Below are positions 23,705 to 29,476 of a stretch of DNA of 64,000 nt, one piece after another (position 1 is the stretch's first letter; the number at the start of each line of letters is the position of its first letter). A model generated the notes under the pieces. It was not told the DNA's origin and searched no databases. It saw only the letters and a program-made list of their open reading frames with translations. Location of the stretch: assembly GCA_021325435.1 (NCBI GenBank), contig JAJPHE010000124.1, forward strand, positions 3,921 through 67,920, read 5' to 3'. The position numbers and the translations under genes are program-made. The DNA comes from Actinomycetota bacterium (lineage in GTDB: Bacteria; Actinomycetota; Acidimicrobiia; Acidimicrobiales; JAJPHE01).

Positions 23705-24589
23705 TCATGAGCCGTACCCGGTCGACGGGTTCGGGCGACCGGCCGCCTCCCACGCCTCGTGGGCGGCACTGACCCGCCCCCAAAGGCGGGACCTCGCCGG
23801 GGCGGCGATCGGCCCGACTCCGAACAGGTCCGCCAGGGCGTCGAACAGCTCGGACGGTAAGGTGATGACCCGCTCGCCGGCGCCCTCGCCGAGCCGGAGC
23901 AGGACGAGGCCACGCAACACATCGGCGCCGGCCTCGTCGCGGCGCTGAACGGTGAGCAGCTTGACGAACGGTGAATCCGGCGAGGTCGAGAGCAACCGGT
24001 GCCGGGCGTCGAATGCGCCCGGGGCAGCGTCGGCCGACCGCCAGGCCATACCGCCGAAGGCGTCACCTCCGATGTTGACGAGATGCCAGTCGCCGACGTC
24101 GCCCGGCGTCTGCTCGAGAGCGAGACGGAACGGACCCTGGCGGTAGGACCCGGACACCAGCGGCAACGGCTCGTACAGCAGATAGCCCAGCCCGGCGTCG
24201 ACGTACCAGGTCCCGCCCGGGTTGGCGTCGGTCGGCAGGCCCGCAACGGTGAGGACCAGATGGTTGGTCATCTCCGCCTCGCTCGGCCCGTTGGGCCCGT
24301 GGACGCCCCCGACGTGGCGGCGGACCGAATAGCCCAGCTCGACCAGCAGCCGCCCCAGCGCCCCATTGAGGTGGAAGCAGTAGCCGCCCCGCCGCTGGGT
24401 GGCGATGCGGGCTAGCGACGACCCCGCATCGATGGGCCAGCGCTCGCCCATCTGGATCCACAGGGACTCGTAGGCCACCTTGTCCACCTGGGCCCGGTGG
24501 ATCCGGAACAGGGCGTCGACCGACGGCGGCTCCGCCTCCAGTCCGAGACGGCCGAGGTACGCACTCACCAGGGAGGAGGCGACCTCCAC
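23705..24589 (-). CDS. nat: Arylamine N-acetyltransferase (NAT) family
   Basis: Trimmed from ORF 23705..24823 to GTG 24589, 19 nt after the upstream stop. Catalytic-Cys motif RRGGYCFHLN, His region TNHLVL and Asp region WYVDAGLG fit the NAT Cys-His-Asp triad. Confidence 0.8.
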   Translation of the reverse strand: MEVASSLVSAYLGRLGLEAEPPSVDALFRIHRAQVDKVAYESLWIQMGERWPIDAGSSLARIATQRRGGYCFHLNGALGRLLVELGYSVRRHVGGVHGPNGPSEAEMTNHLVLTVAGLPTDANPGGTWYVDAGLGYLLYEPLPLVSGSYRQGPFRLALEQTPGDVGDWHLVNIGGDAFGGMAWRSADAAPGAFDARHRLLSTSPDSPFVKLLTVQRRDEAGADVLRGLVLLRLGEGAGERVITLPSELFDALADLFGVGPIAAPARSRLWGRVSAAHEAWEAAGRPNPSTGYGS

Positions 24590-24608
24590 CGGCTCATCCG
24601 CCCGGGCG

Positions 24609-25805
24609 CTAATCGGCCGCGGCGGCCAGCGCCCGGCCGAAGTCGGCGACCACGTCTTCGGGGTCCTCCAGGCCGACGCTGATCCGCACCAGGCCGTCGG
24701 CCAGGCCCTGGGCGGCCCGGTCGGCCGGGGGGACCTGCCGGTGGGTCGTCGACGCCGGGTGGGCGACGAGGGTGTGGACCCCTCCGAGGCTGGCGGCGAT
24801 CCACGCCATCTCCAGTGAGTCACAGAAGCGGATCGCCGCGTCGATGCCGCCCTTCAGCTCGGCGGCGAGCATGCCGCCGAAACCGTTCAGCAGCCGGCGG
24901 GCGACGGCGTGGGACGGGTGACTGGGAAGGCCGGGGTAGTAGGCGACGGCGACGGCCGGCGATTGGTGGAGAAGCTCGGCGACTCGCTGTCCCGTCGCCG
25001 AGTGACGCTCCATGCGCAGCGCCAGGGTGGCCAGGCCCCGGATGCACAACCAGGCTTCGAGGGGCTGCATGGCTCCGCCGACTTCGAGGGCGGTGGCGCG
25101 GATGGAGCCCCGGGCCTCGGACCGGCAGCAGACCACCCCGCCCAGCAGGTCCGAGTGCCCACCGATGTACTTGGTCGCCGAGTGGACCACGTAGTCGAAG
25201 CCGAGCCGGGCGGGGGCGCACAGATAGGGGGAGGCGAAGGTGTTGTCGACGACCGAGGGGACCCCCGCCTGGGCGCACAGAGCGGCCAGGCCCGCGAGGT
25301 CGGCCACCGACACGAGGGGATTGTCGATCGTCTCGACGTAGAGGAGTCGGGCGCCGGCGAGGCTGTCGGCCACGGCCTCCGGGTCGGAGACGTCCACGGT
25401 GGTCACGTCAATTCCGTAGCGGGGCAGCACCTCGTGGAAGAGCGAGTGGGTGCCGCCGTACAGAGCGCGGCTGGTCACGATCCGGTCGCCGGCCCGGGCG
25501 AGGGTGGTGACCACGGCGTGGATCGCAGCCATGCCTGAATCGAAGGCGAAGGCTGCCTCGGTCCCTTCGAGGTCGGCCATCACCGCCTCGAAGGCCTCCA
25601 CCGTCGGGTTGCCGTAACCGCGGCCGTAGACGTGGCCCGGCTTGCGGAAGGCGACGACCTCGGCGAAGTCGTCGAGCGTCTCAAAGCGCCAGGTGGACGT
25701 CTGGTACAGCGGCACGCTCGAGGGCAGCTGGGTCACCGGCGGCGCCACCGGTCGGTGGATGGCCCGGGTGGAGAACCCGGGCGCGGGGGCGGGGCGATCG
25801 GTCAC
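24609..25805 (-). CDS. PLP-dependent Cys/Met-metabolism enzyme (cystathionine gamma-synthase / gamma-lyase / O-acylhomoserine sulfhydrylase family)
   Basis: ORF 24609..25805 (GTG). PLP-lysine motif HSATKYIGGHSD. N-terminal FSTRAIH...YQTSTW pattern typical of this family. Confidence 0.85.
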   Translation of the reverse strand: MTDRPAPAPGFSTRAIHRPVAPPVTQLPSSVPLYQTSTWRFETLDDFAEVVAFRKPGHVYGRGYGNPTVEAFEAVMADLEGTEAAFAFDSGMAAIHAVVTTLARAGDRIVTSRALYGGTHSLFHEVLPRYGIDVTTVDVSDPEAVADSLAGARLLYVETIDNPLVSVADLAGLAALCAQAGVPSVVDNTFASPYLCAPARLGFDYVVHSATKYIGGHSDLLGGVVCCRSEARGSIRATALEVGGAMQPLEAWLCIRGLATLALRMERHSATGQRVAELLHQSPAVAVAYYPGLPSHPSHAVARRLLNGFGGMLAAELKGGIDAAIRFCDSLEMAWIAASLGGVHTLVAHPASTTHRQVPPADRAAQGLADGLVRISVGLEDPEDVVADFGRALAAAAD

Positions 25806-25824
25806 CCCGCCATCATGTCCGGGG

Positions 25825-28064: not shown

Positions 28065-28879
28065 GCCGCCGGCCTCCGCTGGGTTCGATCGGCGTCCATC
28101 CCGTCCCAGAAGGCCTTGACCCCGTCGAGCATCTCCGCCGCCCCCCTTAGGAAGCGATCGGCACTGAAGCCGGGCGCCTTCCATGCCTCGGCCAGCTCAT
28201 CGGCGGTGTGGGCGGCGTGCTGGTCCTCGACCTTGTCGTGCCACACCCAGAAACCCAGATGCAGTTGGGGGCACTCGCGGTCCTTGAACGCTCGCAGGCC
28301 GGCGATCAGCTCCTTCCAGAAGCCGGCGGCCGCCCAGTGCTCGACGGCGTAGGAGGCGCCCTCGGCGGTGGATGGGTCGTCGGAACCGTAGATGCGAAGG
28401 AGCTCGTCGCAGAAGAAGCGGGTGGCGGCGGTGGCGTGGCGGCGCTTGCCCAGATCGGCGAATCCGAGCCCCAGGGGCTGGGCGAAGCGCACCAGCCACT
28501 CGAAGTGGGCTGCGGGGTGCCGGTAGACGCTGCCGTCGACCGACCCGTTGGTCGAGACCAGTTGCGGGTCGACCTCGGGGTCGGGCGCCGCCCCCCGCTC
28601 GGAGCGGAACACCACCCCGAGCTCGTTCATCAGGATCTCCTTGCCGGCCCGGTAGGACTCGATGTCGGCGGCGTTGATCACCTTGCGCAGCTGGGCGATG
28701 ACGAACTGATGGCTGAACACCGAGAACTGGACCGTCAGGTGGGCCACGTCGTGGCGGGTGGCCCGCCCCTCGGCGAACCAGCGGGTGTAACGGTTGTCGG
28801 AGACGACCGGGTGGTCCCCCACCAGGCGGTCCGCCTCCATCCGGAACTGCGCCAGCCCCCCGGCTGCGGTGACGACCAT
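28061..28879 (-). CDS. Heme-oxygenase-fold (TenA/PqqC/CADD, 'iron-containing redox enzyme') family protein
   Basis: Trimmed from ORF 28061..28942 to ATG 28879, preceded by AAGGGGGGAG. All-helical. Pattern NRYTRWFAEGRATRHDV..LTVQFSVFSHQF, ILMNELG, HFEWLVRF, SYAVEHW, and WHDKVEDQHAAH (HxxxExxH). Confidence 0.6.
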   Translation of the reverse strand: MVVTAAGGLAQFRMEADRLVGDHPVVSDNRYTRWFAEGRATRHDVAHLTVQFSVFSHQFVIAQLRKVINAADIESYRAGKEILMNELGVVFRSERGAAPDPEVDPQLVSTNGSVDGSVYRHPAAHFEWLVRFAQPLGLGFADLGKRRHATAATRFFCDELLRIYGSDDPSTAEGASYAVEHWAAAGFWKELIAGLRAFKDRECPQLHLGFWVWHDKVEDQHAAHTADELAEAWKAPGFSADRFLRGAAEMLDGVKAFWDGMDADRTQRRPAA

Positions 28880-28999
28880 GGTCTCCCCCCTTGGGTGACA
28901 ATCTGGTGGTGTAAGTGAAACGCCGGCCCCCCATCCGGTCAATCAACCACTGAAGTCCTGTACAATCTGCCTAGTGTCGGGCGTCACCGACCAGCGTTG

Positions 29000-29476
29000 A
29001 TGGCCAATCTGCCTACGGTCGACGATCTCGACGCCCGGTTGATCGAGGCCCTGGCGGACTCGCCGCGGGCGGGGGTGCTCGAGTTGTCCCGACACCTGCG
29101 GGTGGCCCGGGGCACGGTTCAGGCCCGGTTGGACAAGCTCGTCCAGCGGGGGGTGGTCACCGGCTTCGGACCTCAGGTCGAGCCGGCCGCCCTGGGCTAC
29201 GGGGTCCTCGCCTTCACCACGTTGGAGATCGCCCAGGGCCGGCTGGCCGACGTGGTGAGCCACCTGCAGGCCATTCCTGAGGTGCTGGAGGCCCACGCCA
29301 CCAGTGGGAGCGGTGACCTGCACTGTCGGGTGGTGGCTCGCACCAACGCCGACCTTCAGGACGTGATCAACCGGATGCTCGAGGTCCAGGGCATCGACCG
29401 CACGACCACGGTCATCGCCCTCTCCGAGCAGATCCCCTACCGGGTCCTCCCCCTCGTCGCCCGGTCGGCAGGCTGA
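29000..29476 (+). CDS. Lrp/AsnC-family transcriptional regulator
   Basis: ORF 28997..29476; ATG at 29000 preferred over TTG 28997. HTH LDARLIEALADSPRAGVLELSRHLRVARGTVQARLDKL plus a C-terminal RAM-like domain. Divergent from the hppD operon. Confidence 0.85.
   Translation: MANLPTVDDLDARLIEALADSPRAGVLELSRHLRVARGTVQARLDKLVQRGVVTGFGPQVEPAALGYGVLAFTTLEIAQGRLADVVSHLQAIPEVLEAHATSGSGDLHCRVVARTNADLQDVINRMLEVQGIDRTTTVIALSEQIPYRVLPLVARSAG

What the first reader, a model, noticed from the sequence alone, without database searches (positions are those of the whole stretch)
23705..29476. Lrp-flanked five-gene operon mixing tyrosine-catabolic dioxygenases with a heme-oxygenase-fold protein, a PLP gamma-family enzyme and an arylamine N-acetyltransferase
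Seen: five co-directional genes with gaps of -4, 2, 19 and 19 nt. In order they are a heme-oxygenase-fold protein, an HPPD-family dioxygenase, an HmgA-like cupin dioxygenase, a Cys/Met-family PLP enzyme, and NAT. The operon is divergent from an Lrp/AsnC regulator. Established: the homogentisate pathway normally continues with maleylacetoacetate isomerase and fumarylacetoacetase. I see neither in this window. NATs acetylate arylamines, hydroxylamines and hydrazines. Inference: this looks less like plain tyrosine catabolism and more like a pathway that makes or degrades a modified aromatic (possibly amino-aromatic) metabolite. The gene combination is not one I recognise.
Basis: partly seen in the sequence, partly recalled or inferred. 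Interest (0 to 1): 0.7.

Follow-up and report, generated by a model that had tools for sequence, protein, structure and literature searches.

The report
Tyrosine-breakdown operon with unknown dimetal partner
The first three genes and the regulator form a widespread tyrosine-degradation (homogentisate) module whose first gene is an uncharacterised heme-oxygenase-like metal enzyme tightly coupled to HPPD in hundreds of species. The last two genes (a PLP enzyme and an N-acetyltransferase) travel with the module only in this genome.

Summary
Five co-directional minus-strand genes have gaps of -4, 2, 19 and 19 nt and diverge from an Lrp/AsnC gene. All five family assignments check out.

The "one new five-gene pathway" reading is not supported. 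In 80 species-level genomes carrying a homologue of gene 1:
- HPPD lies immediately downstream in 68, and its start overlaps the gene-1 stop by 4 nt in 52 of 69.
- The Lrp gene is divergent and adjacent in 60.
- The short HmgA-type dioxygenase lies within 10 kb in 45, with an FAH-family hydrolase beside it in 25 of those.
- The PLP enzyme and NAT appear in 0 of 80. In 80 loci of NAT relatives, none has the PLP gene or any module gene.

Gene 1 is the real novelty. It is a ~270-aa protein with no Pfam hit, a heme-oxygenase-like fold (best structural match CADD, then PqqC, BesC and UndA) and a conserved 3-His/3-carboxylate set. In four Proteobacteria, 42-52% identical homologues sit beside or at the end of complete HPPD-HmgA-FAH-GST operons.

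No characterised enzyme of this superfamily (HDO) is tied to tyrosine catabolism. Its step is unknown. I favour an O2- and electron-dependent role with or just before HPPD. The fungal HPPD accessory protein HmgX is a close analogue, but its homology to gene 1 could not be tested here.

The parts
29000..29476 (+). Lrp/AsnC-family regulator, transcribed divergently (HpdA-like position).
   Evidence: PF13404/PF13412 HTH plus PF01037 AsnC_trans_reg. Public gene call of 158 aa. Divergent and adjacent to the HDO gene in 60 of 80 related loci.
28899..29011 (.). Three copies of CAGAT[CT]G (read on the minus strand) at 28899-28905, 28963-28969 and 29005-29011, in and just beyond the Lrp-HDO intergenic region. 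Candidate operator repeats (inferred).
   Evidence: At least one copy in 36 of 54 orthologous intergenic regions, against about 3% of shuffled sequences. No sigma-70-like promoter or intrinsic terminator found in 23000-29600.
28061..28879 (-). [quoted passage not shown] Candidate ligands are E86, H125, E180, H214, E218 and H221.
   Evidence: No Pfam, NCBIfam or PDB sequence hit alone. Family profile hits BesC and pABA synthase. 17 of 33 family members weakly hit PF14518. AF2 model with Foldseek matches CADD, PqqC, BesC, UndA and HrmI. Ligand conservation is at least 97% in members at least 45% identical to g1. At least 551 matching stretches in species-representative genomes.
26937..28064 (-). 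g2: 4-hydroxyphenylpyruvate dioxygenase (HPPD), 375 aa, translationally coupled to g1 through a GTGA overlap.
   Evidence: TIGR01263 at 413.7 bits, above the 277 cut-off. 386 bits to Streptomyces avermitilis HPPD 1t47, against about 206 bits to chains I take from my own knowledge to be hydroxymandelate synthases (2r5v, 3zgj; the tool does not label them so). The His187/His270/Glu349 equivalents are conserved. Immediately downstream of the HDO gene in 68 of 80 loci, with a 4-nt overlap start in 52 of 69.
25825..26934 (-). g3: short-type homogentisate 1,2-dioxygenase homologue, 369 aa.
   Evidence: HgmA_N and HgmA_C in Pfam. TIGR01015 at 91 bits, below the 510 cut-off. Equivalents of what I recall as the human His335/Glu341/His371 iron triad align in the output (residue numbers not counted there). 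43-51% identical over its full length to the ~375-aa HmgA of complete HPPD-HmgA-FAH-GST operons. Within 10 kb of the HDO gene in 45 of 80 loci.
24609..25805 (-). g4: Cys/Met-metabolism PLP gamma-family enzyme, 398 aa. Lineage-specific addition with unassigned specificity.
   Evidence: PF01053 at 1.5e-122. Below every NCBIfam equivalog cut-off; the best is methionine gamma-lyase at 390 bits against 550. The PLP lysine motif SATKY is kept. It has YGGTH where the methionine gamma-lyase has YGATH. Absent from all 80 HDO loci and all 80 NAT loci.
23705..24589 (-). g5: arylamine N-acetyltransferase (NAT) family, 294 aa. Lineage-specific addition.
   Evidence: PF00797 at 6e-28. Aligns to mycobacterial and Nocardia NATs, with GGYC, NH and DAG motifs that I read as the Cys/His/Asp triad. 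Absent from all 80 HDO loci. Its 80 metagenomic relatives (40-66% identity) have none of the other genes nearby.

Best explanation
The locus is a homogentisate-route tyrosine (and probably phenylalanine) catabolic operon under a divergent HpdA-like Lrp/AsnC regulator, with two unrelated genes attached at its 3' end in this lineage.

Shown or strongly supported:
- g2 is a true HPPD (4-hydroxyphenylpyruvate to homogentisate).
- g3 is the short-type homogentisate 1,2-dioxygenase used in complete HPPD-HmgA-FAH-MAAI operons.
- g1 is a heme-oxygenase-like (HDO) protein with an intact 3-His/3-carboxylate dimetal site. It is a conserved, translationally coupled partner of HPPD in Acidimicrobiia, Chloroflexota and Dormibacterota. 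In four Proteobacteria it sits beside or at the end of the complete homogentisate operon.

Inferred:
- g1 is catalytic. It would use O2 plus electrons from a small redox partner to do an oxidative job at the entry of the pathway.
- That job is either (a) supporting or enabling HPPD itself, as the fungal accessory protein HmgX does, or (b) making the HPPD substrate, tyrosine or homogentisate from another aromatic precursor, for example phenylalanine or an arylacetate.
- g4 (PLP) and g5 (NAT) are probably co-transcribed here by read-through, but they are not part of the conserved pathway.
- The later steps (FAH, and an isomerase if one is needed) are encoded elsewhere in this genome.
For: - Gene models and family scores.
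- HPPD identity.
- g3 orthology to the HmgA of complete operons.
- HDO fold and ligands.
- Conservation across 80 species-level loci: HPPD immediately downstream in 68; 4-nt stop/start overlap in 52 of 69; Lrp divergent in 60; HmgA within 10 kb in 45; FAH-family beside HmgA in 25 of 45; an aminotransferase in 14.
- HDO next to complete HPPD-HmgA-FAH-GST operons in Alkalimarinus coralli, Moritella viscosa, Methylocaldum and Pelomicrobium.
- Hints of an electron donor: a Cyt-b5::HDO fusion and a zf-CDGSH gene directly after the HDO gene in A. coralli.
- PLP and NAT not conserved.
- Regulation precedent: HpdA activates hppD in response to 4-HPP in S. coelicolor (Yang et al. 2007, as cited in PMC11012174). 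That HpdA is AsnC-type is my own knowledge.
- Fungal precedent: HmgX is a ~256-aa protein with no recognised domain, next to hppD and required for pHPP to HGA conversion (PMC3203155).
Against: - No experiment or substrate evidence exists for g1. Its step is unassigned, and options (a) and (b) are not distinguished.
- The Vibrio operon described in PMC3858670 has the same four genes with no HDO mentioned, so the HDO is not universally required.
- About 7 of 80 HDO homologues (Gemmatimonadota, Latescibacterota, Fibrobacterota and others) are not near HPPD. A 48-50% identical Cyt-b5 fusion lies in an unrelated context.
- The 19-nt gaps and the lack of a terminator leave open that g4 and g5 are functionally recruited in this organism.
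- All sequences closer than about 55% identity come from metagenome bins, so the rest of the genome (FAH, MAAI, PAH) could not be checked.
Confidence: 0.6

Rival explanations
1. One reading: all five genes act together in a pathway that makes or degrades a modified, possibly amino-aromatic, metabolite. HPPD- and HmgA-like enzymes act on a non-canonical substrate, the PLP enzyme and HDO tailor an amino acid (as BesB and BesC do), and NAT acetylates an arylamine.
For: Tight operon spacing of -4, 2, 19 and 19 nt with no terminator-like site. No FAH or MAAI in the window. g3 and g4 fall below their equivalog cut-offs. All characterised HDOs work in natural-product or cofactor pathways (PMC13108848). 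A Cys/Met-family PLP gene also lies near the Cyt-b5::HDO fusion.
Against: PLP and NAT are absent from all 80 related HDO loci. NAT relatives are never next to the PLP gene or the module (0 of 80). The PLP gene near the fusion is only 36% identical to g4. HPPD passes its equivalog cut-off and keeps its iron triad. g3 is orthologous to the HmgA of complete catabolic operons. FAH-family, aminotransferase and GST genes complete the pathway in relatives.
Confidence: 0.08
2. g1 is an upstream oxygenase. It would be a pterin-independent phenylalanine 4-hydroxylase, or a hydroxylase that turns phenylpyruvate or an arylacetate into 4-HPP or homogentisate, widening the operon's substrate range.
For: Complete dimetal ligand set. 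Electron-donor partners (Cyt-b5 fusion, neighbouring CDGSH gene) fit an enzyme that takes two external electrons per O2. It is the first gene of the operon in Actinomycetota, Chloroflexota and Dormibacterota. Every other step from Tyr onward is already assigned in the proteobacterial and Dormibacterota operons. Characterised HDOs act mainly on amino or fatty acids. One homologue diverges from a class I/II aminotransferase.
Against: The HDO review consulted lists no arene hydroxylation among known HDO reactions. The conserved 4-nt coupling to HPPD points to a stoichiometric partnership more than to a pathway neighbour. No co-occurrence data with phhA or phhB could be obtained.
Confidence: 0.3
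3. g1 is an HPPD accessory protein, the bacterial counterpart (homologue or analogue) of fungal HmgX. It would be needed to load, keep reduced or otherwise activate the Fe(II) site of HPPD, and perhaps of HmgA, with no substrate of its own in the carbon pathway.
For: HDO-HPPD is the most conserved pair (68 of 80), with a stop/start overlap in 52 of 69. HDO-HPPD often occurs without HmgA nearby (35 of 80). Fungal HmgX has a similar size (771 bp), lacks recognised domains, lies next to hppD and is required for pHPP to HGA conversion (PMC3203155; PMC3914699). The dimetal cluster is labile in many HDOs (PMC13108848). A redox partner could pass electrons on.
Against: Homology to HmgX is untested: no sequence could be obtained, and the afdb50 library was unavailable. 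In Proteobacteria the HDO gene is at the far end of the operon or convergent to it, not next to HPPD. HPPDs of the Streptomyces and Vibrio types work without it (PMC3858670; the Streptomyces part is my own knowledge). No HDO is known to act as a chaperone or reactivase.
Confidence: 0.27
4. g1 is a CADD-type self-sacrificing p-aminobenzoate synthase, and NAT acetylates the arylamine produced. The link to HPPD would be incidental.
For: The best structural match is CtCADD (TM 0.83 on target length). The family profile hits pABA synthase 9pj4 at E 1e-3. pABA is a classic NAT substrate (my own knowledge).
Against: Only about 16% identity. What I take (own knowledge) to be the sacrificial lysine of pABA synthases aligns to the conserved Leu191. 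The linkage to HPPD, HmgA and FAH spans several phyla. NAT is absent from 80 of 80 related loci.
Confidence: 0.03

Closest known systems
[quoted passage not shown]
   Same: Seven-helix heme-oxygenase-like fold. 3-His/3-carboxylate pattern including an H-x3-E-x2-H helix. Remote profile similarity to BesC and pABA synthase. Association with small redox partners in some members, as for MboA and MboB in the review.
   Different: About 16% identity to any solved member. Not captured by Pfam PF14518 for the window protein. A long conserved insert with a beta-hairpin (residues ~90-123) sits between the first Glu and the first His. It is embedded in a primary catabolic operon rather than a natural-product or cofactor pathway, whereas the roughly dozen characterised HDOs are linked to natural-product or cofactor pathways, none to tyrosine catabolism. 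What I take to be the CADD sacrificial Lys is replaced by Leu.
Fungal HmgX (A. fumigatus AFUA_2G04210), the HPPD accessory factor of the tyrosine-degradation cluster
   Same: A small protein (771-bp gene) with no recognised domain. It lies next to hppD within an hppD-hmgX-hmgA-fahA-maiA cluster and is genetically required for the 4-HPP to homogentisate step (PMC3203155; PMC3914699; PMC4374905). The bacterial gene has the same size class, the same neighbours and an even tighter coupling to HPPD.
   Different: Sequence or fold homology could not be tested here. Keller et al. reported homologues mainly in Ascomycota. The function of the bacterial protein is untested.
Canonical bacterial homogentisate pathway operons (hppD-hmgA-fahA-maiA, e.g. 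Vibrio) and the Streptomyces hpdA/hppD pair
   Same: HPPD plus a homogentisate dioxygenase under a regulator. The Lrp/AsnC gene diverges from the operon as hpdA does from hppD (plus my own knowledge of the family). The short HmgA type is shared with the proteobacterial operons.
   Different: An extra conserved HDO gene lies between the regulator and hppD. There is no fahA or maiA in this window. A PLP gamma-family enzyme and a NAT occupy the position where relatives carry an FAH-family gene.
BesB/BesC (PLP gamma-family enzyme plus HDO) of terminal-alkyne amino-acid biosynthesis
   Same: The same two protein families occur in one operon, and the g1 family profile hits BesC.
   Different: g1 and g4 are separated by two dioxygenase genes and never co-occur in 80 related loci. 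No halogenase or ligase is present. The resemblance is at family level only (the BesB family assignment is my own knowledge).

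Membership tests
[quoted passage not shown] | Seven-helix heme-oxygenase-like bundle | tested here: met
   AF2 model with pLDDT 84.7 and pTM 0.82. Foldseek finds CtCADD (E 2e-6, TM 0.83 on target length), PqqC, BesC, UndA and HrmI.
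[quoted passage not shown] | 3-His/3-carboxylate primary ligand set on three core helices | tested here: met
   E86, H125, E180 and H214-x3-E218-x2-H221 are conserved at 97% or more in 340 members at least 45% identical to g1, and at 82-93% in 73 more distant ones. H125, E180 and the H-x3-E-x2-H motif align with the corresponding residues of pABA synthase, and the last two also with BesC.
[quoted passage not shown] | Binds Fe/Fe or Fe/Mn and activates O2 | not testable with these tools
   Needs metal analysis, Mossbauer or UV-vis spectroscopy, and activity assays.
CADD-type self-sacrificing pABA synthase | Sacrificial Lys ten residues after the core-helix-2 Glu (and a sacrificial Tyr) | tested here: not met
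   In the profile alignment to 9pj4, the Lys ten residues after the conserved Glu aligns to the family's conserved Leu191. The Tyr region aligns ambiguously. That this Lys is the sacrificial residue rests on my own knowledge.
4-hydroxyphenylpyruvate dioxygenase (TIGR01263 equivalog) | Score above the curated cut-off, the 2-His-1-Glu iron triad, and closer to HPPD than to hydroxymandelate synthase | tested here: met
   413.7 bits against a cut-off of 277. The H187/H270/E349 equivalents of 1t47 are conserved. 386 bits to 1t47 against about 206 bits to 2r5v and 3zgj, which I take from my own knowledge to be hydroxymandelate synthases.
Homogentisate 1,2-dioxygenase (TIGR01015 equivalog) | Score above the curated cut-off | tested here: not met
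   91.4 bits against a cut-off of 510.75. The protein is about 70 residues shorter at the N-terminus than human or Pseudomonas HGD.
Homogentisate 1,2-dioxygenase (function, short type) | His/Glu/His iron ligands, and orthology to the dioxygenase of complete HPPD-HmgA-FAH-MAAI operons | tested here: met
   The HRN...E and FH...HGP motifs align with human HGD 1ey2; the H335/E341/H371 numbering is from my own knowledge. 43-51% identity over the full length to the ~375-aa HgmA_N proteins of the A. coralli, Moritella, Methylocaldum and Pelomicrobium operons. Enzyme activity was not tested.
Methionine gamma-lyase (TIGR01328 / NF005695) | Score above the cut-off, and the MGL-specific active-site Cys in the YGCT motif | tested here: not met
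   390 and 387 bits against cut-offs of 550 and 666. The motif reads YGGTH. That Cys marks MGL is my own knowledge. The PLP lysine (SATKY) is present, so g4 is a gamma-family enzyme of unassigned specificity.
Arylamine N-acetyltransferase (PF00797) | Domain hit above the gathering score, and the Cys-His-Asp triad | tested here: met
   98.6 bits against 22.8. The GGYC, NH and DAG motifs align with 3d9w; that these are the catalytic Cys/His/Asp is my reading. Substrate unknown.
Fungal HmgX family | Sequence or fold homology to AFUA_2G04210 | not testable with these tools
   No HmgX sequence could be obtained. The afdb50 fold library was unavailable. A search from a divergent family member returned only bacterial or unnamed hits, none fungal. 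The shared features are adjacency to hppD and size.

The most novel reading that the evidence does not exclude
The g1 family is the bacterial counterpart of fungal HmgX. It would be a dimetal, O2- or redox-active heme-oxygenase-like protein that many HPPDs need as an obligatory partner. The textbook one-enzyme step from 4-HPP to homogentisate would then be a two-component system in a large part of the microbial world, and the fold and role of HmgX, an accessory factor I found no later mechanistic account of since 2011, would be explained.
Probability: 0.22. Interest if true: 0.8.

Novelty: new variant of a known kind. Interest (0 to 1): 0.6.

Why it matters
HDOs are a fast-growing enzyme superfamily. 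Only about a dozen members have been characterised, all in natural-product or cofactor pathways (PMC13108848). This clade is different. It is conserved, translationally coupled to HPPD, and built into a primary catabolic pathway in at least ~550 species-level genomes across several phyla, including cultured Proteobacteria in which genetics is possible.

Assigning its function would do one of two things. It could add a missing or alternative step to bacterial Phe/Tyr catabolism. Or it could show that HPPD, a herbicide and drug target, commonly works with a metallo-partner. That second outcome would also shed light on the fungal HmgX puzzle.

For genome annotation, the practical lesson is that the PLP and NAT genes here should not be read as part of the pathway.

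Tried and rejected
- HDO as a substitute for glutathione-dependent maleylacetoacetate isomerase in GSH-less phyla: rejected, because the HDO co-occurs with a GST-type isomerase gene in four proteobacterial operons.
- HDO as a CADD-type pABA synthase feeding NAT: rejected, because what I take to be the sacrificial Lys aligns to a conserved Leu and NAT is absent from 80 of 80 related loci.
- A BesB/BesC-like PLP+HDO pair: no co-occurrence in 80 loci. The PLP gene near the Cyt-b5::HDO fusion is only 36% identical to g4.
- A conserved PLP-NAT pair independent of the module: 0 of 80 NAT loci carry g4. Many of those contigs are short, but about 35 have more than 1.3 kb upstream of NAT.
- The 118-aa, beta-lactamase-family and GNAT-like genes downstream of NAT are not conserved with NAT or with the module either.
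- Testing HmgX homology failed. The afdb50 library was unavailable. A search from the divergent member P0139 found only bacterial or unnamed relatives. Papers and supplements carry no HmgX sequence; primer-derived peptides are too short.
- The diverse alignment A1 was too variable to seed the genome scan, so the closer alignment A2 was used.
- The sigma-70 promoter and intrinsic terminator scan of 23000-29600 found nothing. This is uninformative for a 70% G+C actinobacterium.
- Literature searches for HDO together with HPPD or homogentisate found no paper linking them.

Full report
**Observation**

The window is about 70% G+C. It comes from an Acidimicrobiales metagenome bin: g1 is 100% identical to NCBI locus tag VFA11_01095.

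Between 23705 and 28879, five ORFs lie head to tail on the minus strand. Reading the junctions directly gives:
- g1, 28061-28879: ATG preceded by GGGGGGAG.
- g2, 26937-28064: GTG inside GTGA, overlapping the g1 stop by 4 nt.
- g3, 25825-26934: 2-nt gap.
- g4, 24609-25805: 19-nt gap.
- g5, 23705-24589: 19-nt gap.

Public gene calls on the same contig give the same lengths of 272, 375, 369, 398 and 294 aa. An Lrp/AsnC gene diverges from g1. Its likelier start is the ATG at 29000 rather than the TTG at 28997.

**What each gene is**

- **g2** passes the curated 4HPPD equivalog (413.7 bits against 277). It scores 386 bits to Streptomyces avermitilis HPPD, against about 206 bits to two chains (2r5v, 3zgj) that I take from my own knowledge to be hydroxymandelate synthases. 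It keeps the His/His/Glu iron triad.
- **g3** has the HgmA_N and HgmA_C domains but scores only 91 of the 510 bits needed for the HmgA equivalog. What I recall as the His/Glu/His iron ligands of human HGD align. It is 43-51% identical over its full length to the ~375-aa HmgA of complete proteobacterial HPPD-HmgA-FAH-GST operons. It is therefore a short-type homogentisate dioxygenase, not an unrelated cupin.
- **g4** is a Cys/Met-family PLP enzyme (PF01053, 1.5e-122). It falls below every equivalog cut-off. It keeps the PLP lysine and reads YGGTH where methionine gamma-lyases carry their signature cysteine (the significance of the cysteine is my own knowledge).
- **g5** is a NAT whose GGYC, NH and DAG motifs I read as the Cys/His/Asp triad.
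- **g1** has no Pfam, NCBIfam or PDB sequence hit. A 33-member family profile reaches BesC (E 9e-5), a pABA synthase (E 1e-3) and a CADD-like protein. Seventeen of the 33 members weakly hit PF14518. An AlphaFold2 model (pLDDT 84.7) matches CtCADD, PqqC, BesC, UndA, HrmI and TenA proteins. Six residues (E86, H125, E180, H214, E218, H221) form the 3-His/3-carboxylate pattern typical of HDOs and are almost invariant across 413 family members.

**Is the five-gene arrangement conserved?**

A scan of one genome per species found at least 551 stretches encoding a g1 relative. The best 80 were fetched with 10-kb flanks. They are mostly Acidimicrobiia, plus Chloroflexota, Dormibacterota, and single Planctomycetota, Gemmatimonadota, Latescibacterota, Fibrobacterota and other bins.

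tblastn with the window proteins gave:

| Feature | Loci |
|---|---|
| HPPD immediately downstream of the HDO gene | 68 of 80 (4 more nearby) |
| In-frame HPPD start overlapping the HDO stop by 4 nt | 52 of 69 |
| Lrp gene divergent and adjacent | 60 of 80 |
| Short HmgA within 10 kb | 45 of 80 |
| FAH-family gene in the same locus as that HmgA, usually just downstream | 25 of 45 |
| g4 (PLP) | 0 of 80 |
| g5 (NAT) | 0 of 80 |

Neighbour clustering and Pfam scans identified the FAH-family gene (PF01557). They also identified a class I/II aminotransferase in 14 loci, apparently the Dormibacterota, Chloroflexota and Planctomycetota ones (taxa not tabulated), and where positions were mapped the order is HDO-HPPD-HmgA-aminotransferase-FAH.

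In the reverse test, 80 metagenomic loci of NAT relatives (40-66% identity) contain no g4, HPPD, HmgA, HDO or Lrp homologue.

So the conserved unit is the Lrp gene diverging from HDO-HPPD, often followed by HmgA and FAH. In this genome PLP-NAT sits where relatives carry FAH.

**The association reaches distant phyla**

More distant g1 relatives (42-52% identity) were traced to their contigs.
- In Alkalimarinus coralli, Moritella viscosa, Methylocaldum sp. and Pelomicrobium sp., the HDO gene lies directly beside the complete HPPD-HmgA(short)-FAH-GST operon. It is co-directional, as the fifth gene, in Methylocaldum and Pelomicrobium.
- In A. coralli a zf-CDGSH iron-sulfur protein gene follows the HDO gene.
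- One relative is an N-terminal cytochrome-b5 fusion.
- Another diverges from an aminotransferase gene.
- Exceptions exist. Seven of the 80 loci have no HPPD nearby; three checked are flanked by an AMP-binding enzyme and an MFS transporter. The Cyt-b5 fusion lies beside MIOX and other genes.

**What the HDO does**

This is the open question.
- It is not a replacement for maleylacetoacetate isomerase, because GST co-occurs with it.
- It is not a CADD-type pABA synthase, because what I take to be the sacrificial Lys aligns to a conserved Leu.
- The intact ligand set and the two independent redox-partner associations argue that it is catalytic and draws external electrons, as several HDOs do (PMC13108848).

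Two mechanisms fit the anatomy.

*(a) A partner of HPPD.* The pair is the most conserved feature and is translationally coupled. In ascomycetes a protein of similar size with no recognised domain, HmgX, lies next to hppD and is required for converting 4-HPP to homogentisate (PMC3203155; PMC3914699; PMC4374905). No later paper I could find explains HmgX.

*(b) An upstream oxygenase feeding the pathway.* Examples would be phenylalanine to tyrosine without pterin, or an arylacetate to homogentisate. This would explain why every other step is already accounted for in the fullest operons.

I could not discriminate between them. Homology to HmgX could not be tested, because no sequence was accessible and the afdb50 library was unavailable.

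The Vibrio operon described in PMC3858670 has the same four genes with no HDO mentioned. The HDO is therefore an optional addition rather than a universal requirement.

**Regulation**

In S. coelicolor, hppD is activated by HpdA in response to 4-HPP (Yang et al. 2007, as cited in PMC11012174). That HpdA is an AsnC/Lrp-type protein encoded divergently from hppD is my own knowledge. The window's Lrp gene occupies that position, with the HDO gene inserted between it and hppD.

The heptamer CAGAT[CT]G occurs three times in and around the 120-nt intergenic region. It occurs at least once in 36 of 54 orthologous regions, against about 3% of shuffled sequences. It is a candidate operator (inferred).

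**The PLP enzyme and NAT**

They look enzymatically intact, and with 19-nt gaps and no terminator-like site they are probably co-transcribed. Nothing links them to the pathway elsewhere, and I found no chemical rationale that survives the conservation test. I treat them as a lineage-specific insertion. About 10% probability remains that they have been recruited to a local variant.

**Verdict**

The proposed five-gene pathway is not supported. The core is an ordinary homogentisate route in outline, but it contains an uncharacterised, widely conserved HDO clade coupled to HPPD.

That is a new variant of a known system and a good target for assigning a function: cultured hosts exist, the candidate substrates are simple, and there is a clear analogy to HmgX.

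Noticed in passing
window 28899-28905, 28963-28969, 29005-29011: Three copies of CAGAT[CT]G (minus-strand reading; two of them within TAGGCAGATTG) in the Lrp-HDO divergent region. The third lies in codons 2-4 of the Lrp gene. The heptamer recurs in 36 of 54 orthologous intergenic regions, against about 3% of shuffles. It is a possible Lrp operator.
   Followed up: partly
window 30718-31380 (-): A stand-alone PRAI (phosphoribosylanthranilate isomerase, PF00697) gene lies about 1.3 kb beyond the Lrp gene. In several related loci a class II DAHP synthase sits near the module (a cluster found in 10 loci, e.g. L002, L003). Aromatic amino-acid biosynthesis genes tend to neighbour this catabolic module.
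   Followed up: no
window 31393-31884 (-) and 31961-32452 (-): Two adjacent genes, each called as 163 aa in the public annotation, with no Pfam hit on record. By eye, the second looks like a class III nucleotidyl-cyclase domain. Not examined.
   Followed up: no
window 23241-23597 (-), 21556-22995 (-), 20660-21547 (-): Downstream of NAT on the same strand lie a 118-aa protein with no family, a serine beta-lactamase/PBP-family protein and a weak GNAT-like protein. None is conserved next to NAT relatives or HDO loci.
   Followed up: partly
L166:8001-9176 (protein P0123): A cytochrome-b5::HDO fusion 48-50% identical to g1. Its neighbours are MIOX, an Asp/Arg hydroxylase-like gene, DUF5871, DUF6356 and a 436-aa Cys/Met-family PLP enzyme, with no HPPD nearby. 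The same HDO clade may have been recruited to a different oxidative pathway there.
   Followed up: partly
L168:8988-9227: A 79-aa zf-CDGSH iron-sulfur protein gene lies 61 nt after the HDO gene in Alkalimarinus coralli, convergent with the HPPD-HmgA-FAH-GST operon. It is a candidate electron donor. No homologue was found in the 80 actinobacterial and other loci.
   Followed up: partly
L078, L080, L082 (HDO at about 10001-10790): In the Latescibacterota, Fibrobacter and Gemmatimonas bins the HDO homologue (58-60% identity) is not next to HPPD. It is flanked by a divergent ~290-aa unknown gene plus an AMP-binding enzyme, and followed by a weakly MFS-like 431-aa protein.
   Followed up: partly
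window 28514-28612 (g1 residues ~90-123): The HDO family has a conserved insert between the first Glu and the first His: a G-x-V-D-G...F...A-H motif with a predicted beta-hairpin and low model confidence. I did not see it in the solved HDOs matched. It may be a lid or a partner-binding element.
   Followed up: no
L172:7975-9930: In Methylocaldum the gene after the HDO gene is an acetoacetyl-CoA-synthetase-like enzyme (ACAS_N plus AMP-binding). This fits an operon that runs from 4-HPP all the way to activation of the acetoacetate end product.
   Followed up: no
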